This document shows, piece by piece, positions 7,866 through 14,138 of a stretch of DNA of 64,000 bases. Numbering within the stretch: the stretch's first letter is position 1; each line of letters opens with the position of its first letter. The notes beneath the pieces are model-generated. The model was not told the origin of the DNA and did no database searches. It worked only from the letters and a program-made list of their open reading frames with translations. The DNA comes from Escherichia phage kvi. The stretch lies in the sequence record MN850615.1; one strand, given 5' to 3'. Made by a program: the position numbers and the translations under genes.

Positions 7866-10109
7866 TTACAGCTTGCAAGATGAGCACTCGCTAGAGTCTT
7901 CCGTACCATCTGCACCGTCGCGAACGTTCGCATAATACAGGGTTTTCAGACCGTAATATTGAGCAAACAACATATCATCTAAAACATCAGCAATATCGAC
8001 TTTACCCGTCTTATAAGTGCTTGGATCGTAGGATGTGTTGGAACTAATCGCCTGATCTACAAACTTCTGCATGATCGCTGCCAGTGTCAGATAAGGCTTG
8101 TTACCTTTCTTGATCAGTGTCCAAAGCAGGTCAATAACATCAGCATTATTCTCTACGTTCGGAATAACCTGATTAAATTGCCCTTCTTTCGATCCTTTAA
8201 CCGATACAATACCGCGAGGCGGTTCAATACCGTTTGTGCTGTTAGATACCTGAGAAGACGACTCACAAGGCATCAGAGCCGAAAGCGTACTGTTACGAAT
8301 GCCATATTTTTTCAGGTCTTCGCGCAGTTCTTCCCAATCCATCTCATATACCGGATCAACCAGTTCATCTACTGTCTTTTTGTACCAGTCGATAGGCAGT
8401 TCACCGCGTCCATAACGTGTTTCGTGCATCAGTTCGCAAGCACCCTTCTCTTTAGCCAGTTGCACACTAGCCTTAATCAGAGCATATTGCAAGCGTTCAA
8501 ACGTTTTATGCGTAAACTCGTTAGCGTCTTCATATGTGAAGAAATTATCCGCGAGATACGATGCAAAGTTAGTCACCCCAACACCCAGAGAGCGACGTTT
8601 TTTGGATGTCAGAGCTTGCTCTACAGGATAATCCTGGTAATCTAACAGGTTGTCAAGTGCACGCACCATAACCATAGCAATGCGTTCTACTTCTTCCATA
8701 TTTTCGATATCAAAGTTTCCTAAAACATATGCTGCCAAAGTACATAGGCTGATCTCTGAATCATCACGACCCATCGGTTTTGTAGGCAGAGCAATTTCAC
8801 AACACAGGTTGGATTGTTTAATCGGTGCTACATTACGAATAAACGCCCCGTGATTGTTCATGTTGTCTGTGAACGTTGGGTAGATTCGACCAGTGTTAAA
8901 ACGTTCAATTGCCACCGCTAAAAACAGGTCTTCGGCTTTAACACGAGTTTTACGAACACTCGGATCTTTTTCCAGTTTTTCGTAAAGCTGGCGGAAACCT
9001 TCCTCATCTCGGAAGTATAGATCCCACAACAAGCCACCTGCAACATCTGGACTAAACAGAGTAATGTAATCCCGTTTAAGGAATCGCTCTACCATCAGGT
9101 TATTAATCTGTACGCCGTAATCAAGATGACGAATGCGGTTATCTTCCACCCCCTTATTGTTCTTTAACACAATCAGACTTTCAAACTCTAAATGCCACAT
9201 TGGGTAATAGAGAGTCGCCGCCCCGCCACGAATACCGCCTTGTGAGCATGACTTAACGGCAGTCTGAAAATGTTTCCAGAATGGGATAACGCCAGTATGA
9301 CGAACTTCACCATGCCCGATCTTAGATCCTTCCGCGCGAATCATACCAGCATTGATACCGATACCAGCACGCTTGCTAATATACTTGATGATTGCATTTG
9401 CTGTTTCGTTGATGCCCTGCAATGAGTCATCACTTTCAATCACCACACACGAACTAAATTGGCGTGTTGGGGTACGCACACCAGCCATAATCGGAGTAGG
9501 CAGAGATATTTGCTTATTCGCAACAGCATTATAAAAATCAATCACATGTTCAAGTCGATTTTCTGTCTCTTCTTGATGCAAGCACATACCGATCAGCATA
9601 TACGCAAATTGCGGTGTTTCGATGATTTTCTTAGTGCTGCGATCCTGAACAAGATATTTCTCTTTTAACTGCATAGCACCAGCATAGGTCATTTTAAAAT
9701 CAAGTTTATGGTCGATGAATTTCTCCAGATATTCCACTTCTTCACGGGAATACTTTTGCAGAATTTCGCGATCATATTTTCCGGTTGCAATATTACGCTC
9801 AATATGGCTGTAAAAATCAATCGGTTGGAATTGACCGTATACTGATTTGCGAAGCGCGAACATTGCAAGGTTACTTGCTACATATTGATAATCGGGTGTT
9901 TCTACAGTAATGTTATCTGCGGCGACCTTAATCAATACTTTCTGGATATCATTGGTAGACATACCTTCTGTCAGAAGTGGTTCAACCATATCAAACAATT
10001 CATATGGATCAACGTTATGACCTTCGGCTGCCGCTTCCAGAATTTTCATTACTTTTTCTTTTTCAAACGGAACAGTCAGACCGGAAGACTTAACAACATT
10101 TTTAATCAT
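7866..10109 (-). CDS. nrdA: ribonucleotide reductase large (alpha) subunit
   Basis: 747 aa; ATP-cone N-terminus, active-site and C-terminal CSSC redox pair typical of class Ia NrdA. Confidence 0.95.
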   Translation of the reverse strand: MIKNVVKSSGLTVPFEKEKVMKILEAAAEGHNVDPYELFDMVEPLLTEGMSTNDIQKVLIKVAADNITVETPDYQYVASNLAMFALRKSVYGQFQPIDFYSHIERNIATGKYDREILQKYSREEVEYLEKFIDHKLDFKMTYAGAMQLKEKYLVQDRSTKKIIETPQFAYMLIGMCLHQEETENRLEHVIDFYNAVANKQISLPTPIMAGVRTPTRQFSSCVVIESDDSLQGINETANAIIKYISKRAGIGINAGMIRAEGSKIGHGEVRHTGVIPFWKHFQTAVKSCSQGGIRGGAATLYYPMWHLEFESLIVLKNNKGVEDNRIRHLDYGVQINNLMVERFLKRDYITLFSPDVAGGLLWDLYFRDEEGFRQLYEKLEKDPSVRKTRVKAEDLFLAVAIERFNTGRIYPTFTDNMNNHGAFIRNVAPIKQSNLCCEIALPTKPMGRDDSEISLCTLAAYVLGNFDIENMEEVERIAMVMVRALDNLLDYQDYPVEQALTSKKRRSLGVGVTNFASYLADNFFTYEDANEFTHKTFERLQYALIKASVQLAKEKGACELMHETRYGRGELPIDWYKKTVDELVDPVYEMDWEELREDLKKYGIRNSTLSALMPCESSSQVSNSTNGIEPPRGIVSVKGSKEGQFNQVIPNVENNADVIDLLWTLIKKGNKPYLTLAAIMQKFVDQAISSNTSYDPSTYKTGKVDIADVLDDMLFAQYYGLKTLYYANVRDGADGTEDSSECSSCKL

Positions 10110-10147
10110 ATTACCTCACTTCATATTTTAGCAGGAACAAGTTTATC

Positions 10148-10163
10148 CTCCATATTGGGGGCT
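10148..10163 (-). promoter_or_regulatory. GNRA-loop G5/C5 RNA hairpin upstream of nrdA
   Basis: GGGGGC-GAAA-GCCCCC on minus strand; identical copy at 21564-21579 on plus strand. Confidence 0.4.
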
Positions 10164-10177
10164 TTCGCCCCCTTTGT

Positions 10178-11398
10178 TTATACTGCCATTTGAGCGGTGA
10201 TCGCTGGATGGCTTTGATAGTTGTGAATTTTAAAGTCTTTCGGAGTCTTTGTCAATACCTCATCTAAAGATTTAAATTCCGGCAACTCAATTGTTGGTTT
10301 ATCAAACGGAACACGGCTTAACTGTTCCATAACTTGATCAAAGTGGTTTTTGTAAATGTGAGTATCTCCACCAGAGAAAATCAGTTCTCCTACCTCAAGA
10401 TCACACATTTTCGCTATGATGTGAGTTAACAGCGCATAGCTGGCAACATTAAAGGGCAAGCCCAAAAAGCTGTCTACGCTTCGCTGAAACCACATACAAG
10501 ACAGTTTACCTTCATTGACGTAGAATTGCACGAAAGGATGACATACACCTAATACAGCATTATGTGTTCCCTGTACGTTCCATGAGTCAATAATGATCCG
10601 GCGATCCGTTGGATTGTTTTTAATTTGTTCAATCACGTTTTGTAACTGGTCTTCCCAAATCTTCGGGCGATAGACATATTCTTCATCGTCTTTAGTGCTT
10701 GATGTGTCTACGTCCATACTAACAAACATCGTGGTATCCGGTGCTATAATATCCCCACCCAGATAATCACTATCAAGCAGATAACCGAAATAACCATCAT
10801 CTACCCATTCCTGGAATCCCCACAAGCAATATGCATCATTAACAAAATTAGATTGAGTCTTCCAGTGGTCTGCTACCAGAATATAATCAAACTCTTCATA
10901 ACGCATACCACGCCAGATAGCACATAAACGGTCTTCTGTGTCATTGGTTGGCGTAAAGTCTTCTACCCACGGGTGCTTAAATGTATGTGTATATTTGCTC
11001 TTAACGCGCTTAATTTTGATTTCACCATGTGGATGAATCGGTTTGCGTCGCCACGCCATACCATACATATTGCCGACATTATAACCATTGAATCGCAAGG
11101 GATTCTTTTCTTTCATATCAAGACAGTTGCCGCGCCAAATATCAAAGGCTTCCTCGTCAAACTTGCCGCGTGTAATTTCCTGTAAGCGACGGCGGTCAAG
11201 TGATCCCTCCATAAACCATAGCAATTCGCCAATTACAGAGGCTGTAGCCATCTTTTTAGTGGTCAGTAATGGGAAACCCTTGCTTAAATCAATTCGCATC
11301 TCTGCGCCGAATTTAGAGAGCGTACCTACCCCCGTGCGGTCTTCACGAGGACAGCCATTATCAAGAACATCACGCAATAGTTTCAAATATTCTTTCAT
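10178..11398 (-). CDS. td: thymidylate synthase with large internal insertion
   Basis: 406 aa; ThyA motifs DRTGVGT, LLWF, RRIIIDSWNV, catalytic CHPFVQFYV, GLPFNVASYALL, GGDTHIY; extra ~130 residues between AWRR and EDQLQ. Confidence 0.85.
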   Translation of the reverse strand: MKEYLKLLRDVLDNGCPREDRTGVGTLSKFGAEMRIDLSKGFPLLTTKKMATASVIGELLWFMEGSLDRRRLQEITRGKFDEEAFDIWRGNCLDMKEKNPLRFNGYNVGNMYGMAWRRKPIHPHGEIKIKRVKSKYTHTFKHPWVEDFTPTNDTEDRLCAIWRGMRYEEFDYILVADHWKTQSNFVNDAYCLWGFQEWVDDGYFGYLLDSDYLGGDIIAPDTTMFVSMDVDTSSTKDDEEYVYRPKIWEDQLQNVIEQIKNNPTDRRIIIDSWNVQGTHNAVLGVCHPFVQFYVNEGKLSCMWFQRSVDSFLGLPFNVASYALLTHIIAKMCDLEVGELIFSGGDTHIYKNHFDQVMEQLSRVPFDKPTIELPEFKSLDEVLTKTPKDFKIHNYQSHPAITAQMAV

Positions 11399-11639
11399 CC
11401 CACATCACCTTTTTCTTATTGATTGCTTTCTTACGCAGTTTTGCTACTGTCTCGTCAATGTCTATAAAGATAACACCACGGTCGAATATAGTAGCAGGTC
11501 TTGATATATCGCTATTTTCTTGCACAGGAAACCATGATGCGCTCGCTTCATCATAGAGATATTGTAAACCGTAATAATCTACGGCTACTGCGTAGTTTTC
11601 ACTGGTAGCTGTCCATAATTGAATAATACCGACTTTCAT
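11370..11639 (-). CDS. hypothetical protein
   Basis: start refined to ATG 11639 (TAATG overlap with zinc-ribbon sORF); 89 aa. Confidence 0.4.
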   Translation of the reverse strand: MKVGIIQLWTATSENYAVAVDYYGLQYLYDEASASWFPVQENSDISRPATIFDRGVIFIDIDETVAKLRKKAINKKKVMWDERIFETIA

Positions 11640-11731
11640 TATTGTTCCCGTCCGCAATGTAAGCACCGACTACCAGCAAACATTAAAGATTCACCACAAT
11701 GTTTGCACTCATAATCTGTCAGAATTTTCAT
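11639..11731 (-). CDS. small zinc-ribbon peptide (30 aa)
   Basis: MKILTDYECKHCGESLMFAGSRCLHCGREQ; two CxxC pairs; starts 2 nt after frd stop. Confidence 0.3.
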   Translation of the reverse strand: MKILTDYECKHCGESLMFAGSRCLHCGREQ

Positions 11732-11732
11732 G

Positions 11733-12314
11733 TTACGCCTTCTTACGTTCTAAAATTTGTTCGCTGATCAGGTAATTATCAAGGAAGTAATTATGTTCTT
11801 CTTTGGTTACAAAGTCAAAATACAATTCCTGAATCATTTCCTTAGATATACCAACATCATATTCAAATGGATCGTTGATCCCTGAACGTTTAACATACGT
11901 TAACACAATACGGTCCGCAAAGTCAACTGCTTTTTCAATCAGGGAAGGTCCACCAATAACGCTTACCAAACCTTGCAATTTCTCTATGACTTCTAATAAT
12001 TCCTTCAATCCACCATCATTAGTAATCGCGGTATACACATCAGGTTGTTCGCCGTTTTTTGCTTTCGGTGCTGGCTTACTAGTATCGGTACTAACAACCA
12101 CATTCACACGACCTTCCAGTGCTTTAGGGAGACTTTCAAAGGTATTACGTCCCATTACAACCGCCGCAAGATCAACATCTCCCATAGTGCGCATTTTAAA
12201 GTTTTCCATGTCCTTTTTAATTGGACGCCCCCAGGGTAAACCGCCTTTAAAACCAAAAGCCCAATTTTCATCTGACATTTTAGTGTCACCAATCGCAAAT
12301 ACACATTGAATCAT
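11733..12314 (-). CDS. frd: dihydrofolate reductase
   Basis: 193 aa; DHFR fold motifs (IGxxxxLPW, GR-T-ES, VIGG), adjacent to td. Confidence 0.85.
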   Translation of the reverse strand: MIQCVFAIGDTKMSDENWAFGFKGGLPWGRPIKKDMENFKMRTMGDVDLAAVVMGRNTFESLPKALEGRVNVVVSTDTSKPAPKAKNGEQPDVYTAITNDGGLKELLEVIEKLQGLVSVIGGPSLIEKAVDFADRIVLTYVKRSGINDPFEYDVGISKEMIQELYFDFVTKEEHNYFLDNYLISEQILERKKA

Positions 12315-12329
12315 AATATAAATCTCCCA

Positions 12330-12659
12330 TCAAATCAGTTTGAAATAGTTTTCGTTTACATTTTCTTCTGTGATTGCTGTCTTAAATTCTTGACCGTTAT
12401 CCGGTGTGATGAAATAACGGTCAGAATAATCACGAAAACGTTTTAAGTGAGATACCCCAACATTAACACCATGTTCCCAAAAACGAAAGGTAATCATTTT
12501 TGGTTCATATCGATAGTCGCTGGTTAACACAGTACCATCACCGCGACGGGCTTCATAAACCGTAATACATTCACGATTAGCGGCTTTAAGGCATTCTTCA
12601 ATAGTGCCGCACGAGATAATACTTACTTTTTCATCTACGATTTGTTCTACAGTCCACAT
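12330..12659 (-). CDS. hypothetical protein
   Basis: 109-aa ORF with promoter. Confidence 0.45.
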   Translation of the reverse strand: MWTVEQIVDEKVSIISCGTIEECLKAANRECITVYEARRGDGTVLTSDYRYEPKMITFRFWEHGVNVGVSHLKRFRDYSDRYFITPDNGQEFKTAITEENVNENYFKLI

Positions 12660-12690
12660 AATATAATCCTCTCTTTGTTTTGATGTTTGT

Positions 12691-12718
12691 ATTATACACT
12701 ATTGCGTTACGCTGTCAA
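12691..12718 (-). promoter_or_regulatory. sigma70-like early promoter
   Basis: TTGACA N16 TATAAT. Confidence 0.5.
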
Positions 12719-13044
12719 CCTTTTTGTTCCATGAAAAGCGGTGCTGTTTCTTCTTTCAGTTTAATAACTAGCGCGGAAACTTCATCAAGAAAATCTTTTT
12801 CCATATGAGCAAGCATTGATTTAGAATCTTTGATGACTTTCAAAGAATATTCACTTAGATTTCCTTTTCCTAACAATAATGCAGGATACACACTATGTGG
12901 GATCTCGATTTCATGATATTCGCTCATAGTATAATATTTGTGAATTTTTAAATCTATATTTCTTCGTTGTACGTCCACATCAGCAATGACATACAGAAGT
13001 TCGATTTTATCGCTTTTCTGGGAAAGGGTAGCATTCAAAAACAT
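12715..13044 (-). CDS. hypothetical protein
   Basis: 109-aa ORF. Confidence 0.45.
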   Translation of the reverse strand: MFLNATLSQKSDKIELLYVIADVDVQRRNIDLKIHKYYTMSEYHEIEIPHSVYPALLLGKGNLSEYSLKVIKDSKSMLAHMEKDFLDEVSALVIKLKEETAPLFMEQKG

Positions 13045-13163: not shown

Positions 13164-14138
13164 TTACATCGCTAACAGAGAGTCCAGGTCATCCAGATCA
13201 GAAGCGGAGGAAGTACCGCCACCCAGGTCCAGAGATGCCATCAGGTCATCAGCGGAAGAATCTAACGCCGTGCTAGCTGCGTTAATACCAACTACAGTGC
13301 TAGCTGCGGTCATACCAGAATCGAATGCATTCATCTGTGCGTCAAAATCGTCAAGCTGGCTGTTAATCGCTGCCGCAGCACTGGAAGCCGCAGCACCAGC
13401 TACCATAGAAACGCCCATAGTTTTCTTAAATTTGGTTTCCAGTTCATCGAACGGTTTAAACTGGCTAGGCGCTACAATCTCACTCAGATCAACCATGTTT
13501 TCCATCAGATATTTCTGATATGCTTCGTCTTCAATTTTCGGAAGCTGTGATTGCTGCATGAAACGAGAATCATCATAGTTCTGGTGTTTATCAACCTTCT
13601 TAGCTTTCAGGAGGAAGTTAGCACCGGAGAACACACAAGTTACATCTACCGGAACTTCGCCCATATCGGTATTCACGTTCACCATCGCAACGATCTTATC
13701 ATAAATTTTCTGACCGAAGCGGAATTTGAATACCTTACCTTCATTTTCTGGCGCTTGAGGATCTTTCAGTACCAGAATATTTGCGTAGTAAGAGGCTTTA
13801 CGCTTAATCAGTTGCCATTCGGTTTTATCGGTATTGTACAGGTCTTTTTCGTTAATATATTTGCACACAGGGCAAGAATCAAAATCACCGTGGGTGCTGG
13901 AGCAGTTTTCCCAATACCATTTACCATTAACTTTGAAGGAATGGTTTACCAGTTTCACAATCGGCAGACCGTCTTCTGTCTTAGACGGCAGGAAGCGAAT
14001 CAGGGCTTCACCGTTACCTGCTGCATCAGTCTTAATCTTCCACTCTTTCGGATCTTCTTTGGAGAAACCGTTGCCACCTTTCAGTGCGGCCAGTTGAGCT
14101 TGCAGTTTGGAGCTATCTTGACGACGAAACATGTTCAT
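13164..14138 (-). CDS. 32: single-stranded DNA-binding protein gp32
   Basis: 324 aa; gp32 zinc-binding subdomain (H..C..C..C: [10 protein letters not shown]), LAST-like basic N-term, acidic Ser/Asp-rich C-terminus. Confidence 0.9.

What the first reader, a model, noticed from the sequence alone, without database searches (positions are those of the whole stretch)
10655..11044. Thymidylate synthase with a ~130-residue in-frame insertion in the small-domain region
The td product is 406 aa versus about 264-290 aa for typical ThyA. All catalytic and dUMP-binding blocks are intact (DRTGVGT, RRIIIDSWNV with the dUMP-specifying Asn, CHPFVQFYV, GGDTHIY), but about 130 extra residues sit between the AWRR segment and EDQLQNVIEQIK. 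The insert has no intein termini and no homing-endonuclease motif and keeps the frame, so it looks like an extra domain rather than a mobile element. It lies where some ThyA enzymes have a variable small domain, but is much larger. DHFR (frd) lies just upstream, arguing for genuine TS chemistry.
Basis: partly seen in the sequence, partly recalled or inferred. Interest (0 to 1): 0.5.

Follow-up and report, generated by a model that had tools for sequence, protein, structure and literature searches.

The report
Decayed homing-endonuclease remnant inside thymidylate synthase
The extra 130 residues in this phage thymidylate synthase are a folded but stripped-down leftover of a selfish homing-endonuclease-like element that entered the gene in-frame, and fuller versions of it in other phages still look mobile.

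Summary
The td ORF (10178..11398, minus strand) encodes a 406-aa thymidylate synthase (TS) with all catalytic residues intact. About 132 extra residues (118-249) sit in a surface loop. The window is an RB49-like coliphage (Krischvirus), and all 58 td-matching phage records carry the insert.

The insert is not an orphan domain. It is homologous to larger inserts (196-284 aa) at the same td site in jumbo phages and a Vibrio phage. Through them it is homologous to a very large, unmodelled family of small basic phage proteins (hhalign 97%, E 3.5e-11). PHROGs labels that family "HNH endonuclease". Some members lie inside group I introns that interrupt terminase genes.

The long inserts keep every conserved residue of that family. 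They also move: phage UE-S1 carries the insert plus co-converted flanking td sequence, while close relatives (94-97% identical outside the cassette) lack it.

The window's version has lost a great deal:
- two of the three modules;
- the final helix of the beta-beta-alpha unit;
- 9 of 17 conserved positions;
- its positive charge (net -16).

It is still confidently folded on a beta-ribbon stalk and under purifying selection (omega about 0.2-0.3, against 0.08 for the core).

Best reading: a fixed, inactivated relic of an in-frame, non-splicing homing element. Exaptation is not excluded.

The parts
10178..11398 (-). td gene: thymidylate synthase, 406 aa plus stop codon
11048..11398 (-). N-terminal TS core, residues 1-117 (DRTGVGT ... 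GNMYGMAWR)
   Evidence: Alignment A1; residue mapping
10652..11047 (-). Whole in-frame insert, residues 118-249 (the finding's 10655-11044 are residues 119-248)
   Evidence: Alignment and segment lengths; conserved in 58 Krischvirus records
11009..11047 (-). Ascending strand of the beta-ribbon stalk, residues 118-130 (RKPIHPHGEIKIK)
   Evidence: AF2 model strand E118-130; motif P-x-PHG...I-x-RK shared with long inserts; omega 0.14 for the stalk
10943..11008 (-). Linker, residues 131-152. It occupies the place where long inserts carry module A (an SH3/Tudor-like barrel), which is deleted here
10718..10942 (-). Remnant of module B, residues 153-227: four helices plus a beta-hairpin. Homologous to the core of the free-standing endonuclease-like family but lacking its final helix
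   Evidence: hhalign 97.2%, E 3.5e-11; secondary-structure order matches P0122; 8 of 17 family-conserved positions kept; omega about 0.2-0.3
10679..10717 (-). Acidic tail loop, residues 228-240 (MDVDTSSTKDDEE). It replaces the helix of the beta-beta-alpha unit and the DNA-binding tail (module C) of longer relatives
   Evidence: Alignment; AF2 shows no helix here; charge calculation
10652..10678 (-). Descending strand of the stalk, residues 241-249 (YVYRPKIWE)
   Evidence: AF2 strand E241-250; 100% conserved in P0003-P0005 despite about 62% overall identity
10178..10651 (-). C-terminal TS core, residues 250-406 (DQLQNVIEQIK ... catalytic C286 ... MAV) plus stop codon
   Evidence: PF00303 stretch 250-406; residue mapping
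11733..12314 (-). frd (dihydrofolate reductase), upstream neighbour and folate-cycle partner
   Evidence: ORF; RB49 annotation; PF00186 on orthologs in L019-L021
7866..10109 (-). nrdA (ribonucleotide reductase large subunit), downstream neighbour
   Evidence: ORF; RB49 annotation; Pfam on the ortholog

Best explanation
The insert is the fixed, inactivated remnant of a homing-endonuclease-like element that lives inside td as an unspliced, in-frame protein domain.

The complete element is seen in Asteriusvirus UE-S1, Alcyoneusvirus phiKp_21 and metagenomic phages. It encodes a two-stranded beta-ribbon stalk carrying three modules: A, an SH3/Tudor-like barrel; B, a helical bundle ending in a beta-beta-alpha unit with an invariant D-K-D...N signature; C, an I-HmuI-type NUMOD-like tail. 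The stalk holds the basic, DNA-binding-type head away from the TS body at a loop that tolerates length variation, so TS keeps working without any splicing.

In the lineage leading to Krischvirus the element lost module A, module C and the last helix of module B. It also lost most conserved polar residues and its positive charge. What remains is a compact acidic knob on the stalk.

The knob is kept under moderate purifying selection. I infer two reasons: a misfolded insert would damage an important enzyme, and only a very precise deletion could remove it. The TS part performs ordinary dUMP methylation with frd as folate-cycle partner.

Shown here: homology, fold, loss of conserved residues, charge reversal, selection, and lateral transfer of the long form. 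Inferred: that the ancestral element was an active endonuclease, and that the present remnant has no nuclease or DNA-binding activity.
For: 1. Homology chain. The window insert matches the long td inserts by tblastn (E 3e-12 and 1e-6). The long inserts match phrog_2081, phrog_953 and phrog_374, all named 'HNH endonuclease' (4e-32, 7e-25, 8e-21). A profile of the short inserts against a profile of 71 free-standing proteins gives 97.2% probability, E 3.5e-11.
2. The free-standing relatives behave like homing endonuclease genes. In two T7-like phages the 178-201 aa ORF lies between two terminase exons, directly after full-length group I intron matches (E 6e-8 and 1e-3). Other members carry I-HmuI NUMOD-like (PF22083) or AP2-like tails.
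3. Structure. The AF2 model has pLDDT 93.5, with stalk strands 118-130 and 241-250, four helices and a hairpin. This is the same order of elements as module B of the free-standing P0122 (pLDDT 92.6), minus the last helix.
4. Decay. The window keeps 8 of 17 family-conserved positions (W, M, V, W, F, L, D, D). It has lost R102, K145 (now S), Y153 (now I), C158 and N166. The long inserts keep 14-17 of 17. Among the short inserts the invariant DKD triad varies freely: DSD, DCD, TQK, SCD, SCK, SLV.
5. Charge. Free-standing proteins average net +10 and pI 9.4. Long inserts are +10 to +17. The window's globular part is net -16, pI 4.05.
6. Selection. Omega is 0.075-0.10 for the core and 0.17-0.24 for the insert (module B 0.19-0.31).
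7. Mobility of the long form. P0017's core is 84% identical to insert-less TSs but 59% to other insert-bearing TSs. About 20 Asteriusvirus genomes lack the insert at the same locus. UE-S1 td is 94-97% identical to 121Q outside codons 91-448. Inside that block it is 52-54% identical to 121Q and 86% identical to phiKp_21.
8. The same module sits in-frame at a different td site in Tenacibaculum phage PTm5.
9. Not an intein, intron or artefact.

Against: Purifying selection on the remnant, its fixation in every Krischvirus record, the invariant motifs DAYCLWGFQEWVD and APDT in the short forms, and the extreme acidity could equally mean a new function. In that case 'passenger' would be wrong.

The mosaic in UE-S1 could come from ordinary homologous recombination rather than endonuclease-driven homing. 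Structural conclusions rest on predictions, not on solved structures.
Confidence: 0.75

Rival explanations
1. Exapted domain. The remnant originated from the mobile element but now serves the phage. It could be an acidic protein-interaction surface within the dNTP-synthesis complex, a regulator of TS, or a DNA-mimicking decoy. By disrupting the homing site, it could also give td immunity against related active endonucleases from co-infecting phages.
For: The insert is fixed in all 58 td-matching records. Omega of 0.17-0.31 is well below 1. Motifs invariant across short forms at about 60% overall identity include DAYCLWGFQEWVD and APDT, and the stalk YVYRPKIWE is 100% conserved in P0003-P0005. 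The charge shift to net -16 is strong and directional, not random drift. The fold is predicted with high confidence.
Against: Selection is 2-4 times more relaxed than on the core. Small indels are still accumulating inside module B: RB49 has +4 aa (SEYN) and JSE +1 codon. Linker and tail segments are only 20-35% conserved. Any in-frame domain within a needed enzyme is selected to stay foldable, so omega below 1 does not by itself show function. No partner or ligand is indicated by any search.
Confidence: 0.2
2. The window's insert is still an active homing endonuclease domain that cuts insert-less td alleles.
For: It is homologous to a homing-endonuclease-like family. TS is a dimer (established knowledge), which could bring two nuclease heads together.
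Against: Modules A and C and the terminal helix are missing. The invariant R102, K145, Y153 and N166 are lost. Net charge is -16. There is no presence/absence polymorphism within Krischvirus.
Confidence: 0.03
3. An ordinary lineage-specific expansion of the TS small-domain loop, unrelated to mobile elements. From memory, Lactobacillus casei ThyA has a roughly 50-residue insert in this region.
For: The loop varies from 5 to 28 residues among normal TSs, and 121Q TS has an unrelated expansion of about 45 aa there.
Against: There is significant sequence and profile homology to endonuclease-like proteins that have nothing to do with TS.
Confidence: 0.01
4. An intein, an intron, or a sequencing or frameshift artefact.
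For: Inteins and group I introns are known in phage nucleotide-metabolism genes. T4 td itself has a group I intron (established knowledge; PMC2988022).
Against: Pfam finds no Hint or intein domain. The junction residues are R-K...W-E, not Cys/Ser ... His-Asn-Cys/Ser/Thr. Rfam finds nothing at E up to 1. The reading frame is continuous and under purifying selection in 58 genomes and in relatives at about 60% identity.
Confidence: 0.01

Closest known systems
ShiLan domain: an unspliced insertion element in a mycobacteriophage DNA methylase (PMC11855218)
   Same: Both are insertions read through in-frame with the host gene. Neither has intein or intron features. Both are predicted to project from the host protein on connecting strands. 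Both have a sporadic, homing-like distribution and are associated with an HNH-type endonuclease.
   Different: In ShiLan the endonuclease is encoded in a different reading frame, hidden within the insert. Here the host-frame translation itself is homologous to the endonuclease-like proteins, and no sizeable alternative-frame ORF exists in the insert. The host gene is td, not a methylase. The window's copy is a decayed and fixed remnant.
Intron-encoded and free-standing phage proteins of PHROG families 2081, 953 and 374 ('HNH endonuclease'), for example Yersinia phage fPS-19 g047
   Same: Module B of the insert is homologous to them (97% hhalign probability). The order of helices and hairpin is the same. 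The long td inserts keep all of their conserved residues.
   Different: Those proteins are separate, basic, 180-250 aa proteins with an N-terminal SH3-like barrel and often a NUMOD-like or AP2-like tail. The window's insert lacks both, lacks the last helix, has lost most conserved polar residues and is acidic.
I-HmuI-type HNH homing endonucleases (PDB 1u3e)
   Same: The overall layout of the complete element is parallel: N-terminal beta domain, a central beta-beta-alpha unit, then a NUMOD-like DNA-binding tail (PF22083 hits). I-HmuI is the only PDB sequence hit, and it is weak (E 0.35).
   Different: There is no Pfam HNH hit, and the profile comparison with a canonical HNH_3 protein was negative. 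The would-be catalytic His position appears to be taken by Lys in a D-K-D motif; this is my inference from spacing and was not tested.
Inteins carrying homing endonuclease domains
   Same: Both are selfish elements that sit in-frame in conserved sites of essential or near-essential genes, including nucleotide-metabolism genes. Both decay after fixation into smaller remnants (mini-inteins).
   Different: There is no Hint splicing domain and no splice-junction residues. The insert stays in the mature protein.
T4 td group I intron with I-TevI
   Same: The same host gene, td, in a T4-type phage is colonised by a homing element. Co-conversion of flanking exon sequence accompanies transfer.
   Different: The T4 element is removed at the RNA level and lies at a different td position. 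Its endonuclease is GIY-YIG and is translated separately.
Small-domain insertions of ThyA (Lactobacillus casei type, recalled from memory)
   Same: Both lie in the same permissive surface region of the TS small domain.
   Different: The L. casei insert is about 50 residues and, as far as I recall, has no link to endonuclease-like proteins. I did not test this here.

Membership tests
ThyA-type thymidylate synthase (PF00303 / TIGR03284) | Profile score above the curated cut-off | tested here: met
   PF00303 283.8 bits against 24.3; TIGR03284 284.5 bits against 108.35
ThyA-type thymidylate synthase (PF00303 / TIGR03284) | Catalytic Cys, phosphate-binding Arg quartet, Asn specifying dUMP, His/Tyr of the GGDxHxY motif | tested here: met
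   C286, R21, R266, R267, R306, N317, H347 and Y349 align with E. coli C146, R21, R126, R127, R166, N177, H207 and Y209
ThyA-type thymidylate synthase (PF00303 / TIGR03284) | TS fold | tested here: met
ThyA-type thymidylate synthase (PF00303 / TIGR03284) | dUMP methylation activity | not testable with these tools
   Needs an enzyme assay or thyA complementation
Intein | Hint splicing domain; N-terminal Cys/Ser; C-terminal His-Asn followed by Cys/Ser/Thr | tested here: not met
   No Pfam hit in the insert; the junctions read WR|RKP and IW|EDQ
Group I intron | Ribozyme core detectable; the interruption is not constrained as coding sequence | tested here: not met
   No Rfam match at E up to 1 in 9900-11800; omega of the insert is 0.17-0.24
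phrog_2081-type endonuclease-like family (free-standing or intron-encoded) | Sequence homology of the core (module B) | tested here: met
   hhalign 97.2%, E 3.5e-11; transitive hits
phrog_2081-type endonuclease-like family (free-standing or intron-encoded) | Invariant residues R102, D144, K145, D146, Y153 and near-invariant N166 (P0122 numbering) | tested here: not met
   The window keeps only D144 and D146. K145 is S, Y153 is I, N166 is D, and R102 falls in a deleted stretch. The long td inserts do meet this feature.
phrog_2081-type endonuclease-like family (free-standing or intron-encoded) | N-terminal SH3-like barrel and a basic overall charge | tested here: not met
   Module A is absent; net charge is -16 against about +10 for the family
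HNH / beta-beta-alpha-Me nuclease superfamily | Beta-beta-alpha unit with a metal-binding and general-base motif; profile similarity to HNH families | tested here: inconclusive
Mobile homing element | Presence/absence polymorphism among close relatives, with co-conversion of flanks | tested here: not met
   For the window's short form, all 58 records carry it. The feature is met for the long form: UE-S1 compared with 121Q and about 20 other Asteriusvirus genomes, and P0017.
Mobile homing element | Site-specific DNA cleavage by the encoded protein | not testable with these tools
   Needs biochemistry

The most novel reading that the evidence does not exclude
The long td inserts may represent a so-far undescribed lifestyle for homing endonucleases. 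In this reading an active nuclease lives permanently as an unspliced, in-frame domain of a functioning enzyme. It is held away from the enzyme on a beta-ribbon stalk, possibly uses the TS dimer to pair two nuclease heads, and spreads by cutting insert-less td alleles. In the same reading, the Krischvirus remnant in this window has been exapted, for example as an acidic decoy or as a target-site block that protects td from related endonucleases during co-infection.
Probability: 0.15. Interest if true: 0.85.

Novelty: new variant of a known kind. Interest (0 to 1): 0.6.

Why it matters
Homing endonucleases are thought to survive inside essential genes only by hiding in self-splicing introns or inteins, or by sitting between genes. 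This td insert family suggests a further route: staying in the mature protein as a tolerated surface domain.

The window shows the end state of that route, a decayed remnant frozen in a working enzyme. UE-S1 and phiKp_21 show what looks like the active state, with a clear co-conversion footprint. Together these give a testable system (UE-S1 against 121Q) for a new mode of selfish-element residence.

The work also points to a very large protein family without a Pfam or NCBIfam model: 47,701 cluster representatives at E <= 1e-3. Its nuclease chemistry is unknown.

There are practical consequences too. Krischvirus Td is annotated simply as thymidylate synthase or as hypothetical. At least one insert-bearing TS-like protein (Vibrio phage D181) is annotated as an HNH endonuclease.

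Tried and rejected
- The word-indexed protein search with the insert alone found nothing. The full-length protein and a profile worked.
- Pfam and NCBIfam have no model for the insert, the long inserts or the free-standing proteins.
- The AFDB Foldseek library was not available.
- The idea that module B is a plain HNH domain was tested against a canonical HNH_3+AP2 protein and was not supported.
- I checked whether neighbouring endonuclease-like genes belong to the same family. RB49p240 and the gene that splits nrdA in L020 do not.
- I checked whether 450-720 aa top hits of the exhaustive search were insertions in other enzymes. Pfam found no host domain in ten of them, so they appear to be multi-module proteins.
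- Intein, intron, frameshift and hidden out-of-frame ORF explanations were considered and rejected.
- Literature searches found no description of this td insert.

Full report
**The observation**

The window encodes, on the minus strand at 10178..11398, a 406-aa ORF. The finding's coordinates 10655-11044 are codons 119-248. Pfam matches thymidylate synthase (TS) in two separated stretches (PF00303, 1.5e-84), and NCBIfam TIGR03284 scores far above its cut-off. The extra residues lie between R117 and D250 and number 132, while ordinary TSs have 5-28 residues there. Every catalytic or ligand-binding residue of E. coli ThyA that I checked is conserved. The one exception is W83, which is Asn here and also in T4 Td.

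The window comes from an RB49-like coliphage (Krischvirus; best match 99%). All 58 td-matching phage records carry the same uninterrupted gene, which rules out a frameshift or assembly artefact. RB49 itself has a 4-aa longer variant. frd lies upstream and nrdA downstream, as in other T4-type phages.

**What the insert is related to**

Pfam sees nothing in the insert. A translated search of phage genomes, however, found significant matches outside Krischvirus. One was a 517-aa TS of Asteriusvirus UE-S1 and Alcyoneusvirus phiKp_21 (34% identity, E 3e-12). Another was a 477-aa TS-like protein of Vibrio phage D181, annotated 'HNH endonuclease' (E 1e-6). A search with the whole protein found 17 clusters of long TSs (401-613 aa) among about 8000 ordinary ones. 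All have their extra residues at the same site, ranging from 127 to 284 aa.

The long inserts have three modules between two conserved stalk segments:
- module A, a beta-rich domain;
- module B, with the pattern LYxxWxxMxxRCY ... RW ... F ... LDKDY ... YS ... C.F ... N;
- module C, a tail.

The window's insert contains only the stalk segments and a shortened module B. The long inserts hit PHROG families named 'HNH endonuclease' (phrog_2081 4e-32, phrog_953 7e-25, phrog_374 8e-21), whereas the window's insert alone hits phrog_2081 only weakly (0.068). A profile of seven short inserts compared with a profile of 71 free-standing proteins gives 97.2% probability and E 3.5e-11 over 75 columns. Homology is therefore established.

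**The free-standing family**

The module occurs in 1473 phage records. In an exhaustive profile search it matched 47,701 cluster representatives at E <= 1e-3, of which 2,395 were at E <= 1e-30. Even so, it has no Pfam or NCBIfam model.

Typical members are 180-250 aa and basic. In Yersinia phage fPS-19 and Edwardsiella phage DT115P1 the gene lies between two pieces of the large terminase gene. It sits directly after full-length matches to the group I intron model (E 1e-3 and 6e-8; these are below Rfam's curated cut-off but significant for the small search). That is the classical setting of an intron-encoded homing endonuclease. Other members carry an I-HmuI NUMOD-like tail (PF22083) or an AP2-like tail. 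In both cases module B sits where the HNH domain sits in known HNH homing endonucleases.

**The window's copy has decayed**

The free-standing family has invariant R102, D144, K145, D146 and Y153, and near-invariant Y93, W96, M99, Y107, V112, W116, F119, F122, L143, C158 and N166. The long td inserts keep 14-17 of the 17 positions I tabulated (these 16 plus S154). The window keeps 8, namely six hydrophobic core residues and two Asp. Across the short inserts the invariant DKD triad reads DSD, DCD, TQK, SCD, SCK and SLV, so that constraint is gone.

Module A, module C and the final helix are deleted. The charge has reversed. Free-standing proteins average net +10 and pI 9.4, and the long inserts are +10 to +17. 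The globular part of the window's insert is net -16 with pI 4.05, and the other short inserts have pI about 4.8-4.9. Nuclease activity or DNA binding by this remnant is therefore unlikely.

**It is still a real, maintained domain**

AlphaFold models the whole protein at pLDDT 93.5 and pTM 0.91, with the insert at 84-98. Strands 118-130 and 241-250 form a long two-stranded ribbon. The ribbon carries helices 153-171, 177-180, 182-189 and 195-200 and a hairpin at 206-209/224-227.

I computed dN/dS from nine Krischvirus genomes and five metagenomic relatives. It is 0.075-0.10 for the TS core and 0.17-0.24 for the insert (module B 0.19-0.31, stalk 0.14). Among the P0003-P0005 group the values are 0.06-0.07 for the core against 0.15-0.26 for the insert. 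The insert is thus under purifying selection, but 2-4 times more relaxed than the enzyme. Small indels are still arising within module B.

**The complete element moves**

The TS core of P0017 is 84% identical to insert-less TSs but only 59% identical to any other insert-bearing TS. Within Asteriusvirus, about 20 genomes (121Q, PBECO4 and others) match the UE-S1 td locus at about 93.5% identity but in two pieces and about 625 nt shorter.

Codon by codon, UE-S1 and 121Q td are 94-97% identical at the nucleotide level for codons 1-90 and 449-517. For codons 91-448 they are only 52-54% identical. That same block is 86% identical to phiKp_21, whereas the outer parts of UE-S1 and phiKp_21 are 77-79% identical. 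The insert therefore travels as a cassette, together with about 27 upstream and about 90 downstream TS codons. That is the footprint expected from double-strand-break repair with co-conversion.

The sequence signatures of this cassette (RFNGxNxGNMYGMxWR upstream and NAxLGxCHP downstream) are also present in the window's td. This ties the Krischvirus gene to the same lineage.

In Tenacibaculum phage PTm5 the same module sits in-frame at a different td site. That site is between E. coli residues 83 and 88, whereas the window's insert lies between about 102 and 110.

**Interpretation**

The simplest account has three steps:
- A homing-endonuclease-like element colonised td as an unspliced, in-frame domain, mounted on its own beta-ribbon stalk at a loop that tolerates insertions.
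- In the ancestor of Krischvirus and its relatives (P0003-P0006, all in the gp32-frd-td-nrdA context) it became fixed.
- It then degenerated as expected for a homing element with no empty sites left. It could not be cleanly removed, so a foldable acidic knob remains.

TS chemistry is untouched. I put this at 0.75. The main rival is that the remnant has been put to use (0.2). The evidence for that rival is the fixation, the conserved motifs of the short forms and the striking acidity. Against it are the relaxed selection and the continuing indels. Continued endonuclease activity, an unrelated loop expansion, and an intein, intron or artefact are each very unlikely.

**Comparison with known systems and novelty**

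The nearest precedent I found is the ShiLan domain of a mycobacteriophage methylase. It is an unspliced, read-through insertion with homing-like distribution, but there the HNH endonuclease is hidden in another reading frame (PMC11855218). Here the host-frame product itself is the endonuclease-like protein.

Inteins and the T4 td intron share the target logic but are removed by splicing. I found no description of the td insert in the T4-phage literature I searched.

I rate it a new variant of a known kind. The window itself holds a relic, which limits the interest of this locus alone. Its relatives provide a directly testable system.

Noticed in passing
window 12330..13044 (-), between gp32 (13164..14138) and frd: The window has two 109-aa ORFs here. 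RB49 has a 485-aa 'endonuclease' (RB49p240; CapR and DUF723 repeats) plus one 109-aa ORF at this position, and contig L019 has a 340-aa CapR-type gene. This looks like a presence/absence polymorphism of another endonuclease-like gene right next to td.
   Followed up: partly
L020 4588-7239 (metagenomic T4-like contig carrying P0005): nrdA is split into two ORFs by a 237-aa gene with HNH and I-HmuI NUMOD-like domains, resembling the mobE-type gene splitting known from Aeromonas phage Aeh1. This gene is not of the same family as the td insert.
   Followed up: partly
L006 687-3226 and L007 540-3228 (Yersinia phage fPS-19, Edwardsiella phage DT115P1): The large terminase gene is interrupted by a probable group I intron carrying the 178-201 aa endonuclease-like ORF. 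The records annotate two separate terminase CDSs and a hypothetical protein.
   Followed up: partly
L004 2138-3571 (Vibrio phage D181): A protein annotated 'HNH endonuclease' is in fact a diverged TS-like protein with the insert. Its N-terminal motif is TRSGKV instead of DRTGxGT, and LKDAHTY replaces GGDxHxY, so its substrate or activity may differ from ordinary TS.
   Followed up: no
window 10652..11047 compared with the rest of td: Among nine Krischvirus isolates, synonymous divergence is about half as large in the insert (dS 0.116) as in the TS core (0.254). I have no explanation; it could reflect recombination history or constraint at the nucleotide level.
   Followed up: no
P0190 (360 aa, metagenomic): The endonuclease-like module is fused N-terminally to an RNase_T/DnaQ-type exonuclease domain (PF00929). 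This is another case of the module joined to an enzyme.
   Followed up: no
L024 856-1785 (phage 121Q td): This insert-less TS (309 aa) has an unrelated expansion of about 45 residues in the same loop. It shows how permissive the site is.
   Followed up: no
L008 1608-3191 (Tenacibaculum phage PTm5): This TS (527 aa) carries the same endonuclease-like module in-frame at a different position, before the GxxGxxYGxQW motif, plus a second expansion of about 42 residues after E. coli position 156.
   Followed up: partly
window 11370..11666 (-): A 98-aa ORF overlaps the start of td by 29 nt, as RB49p236 does in RB49. It has no family match.
   Followed up: no
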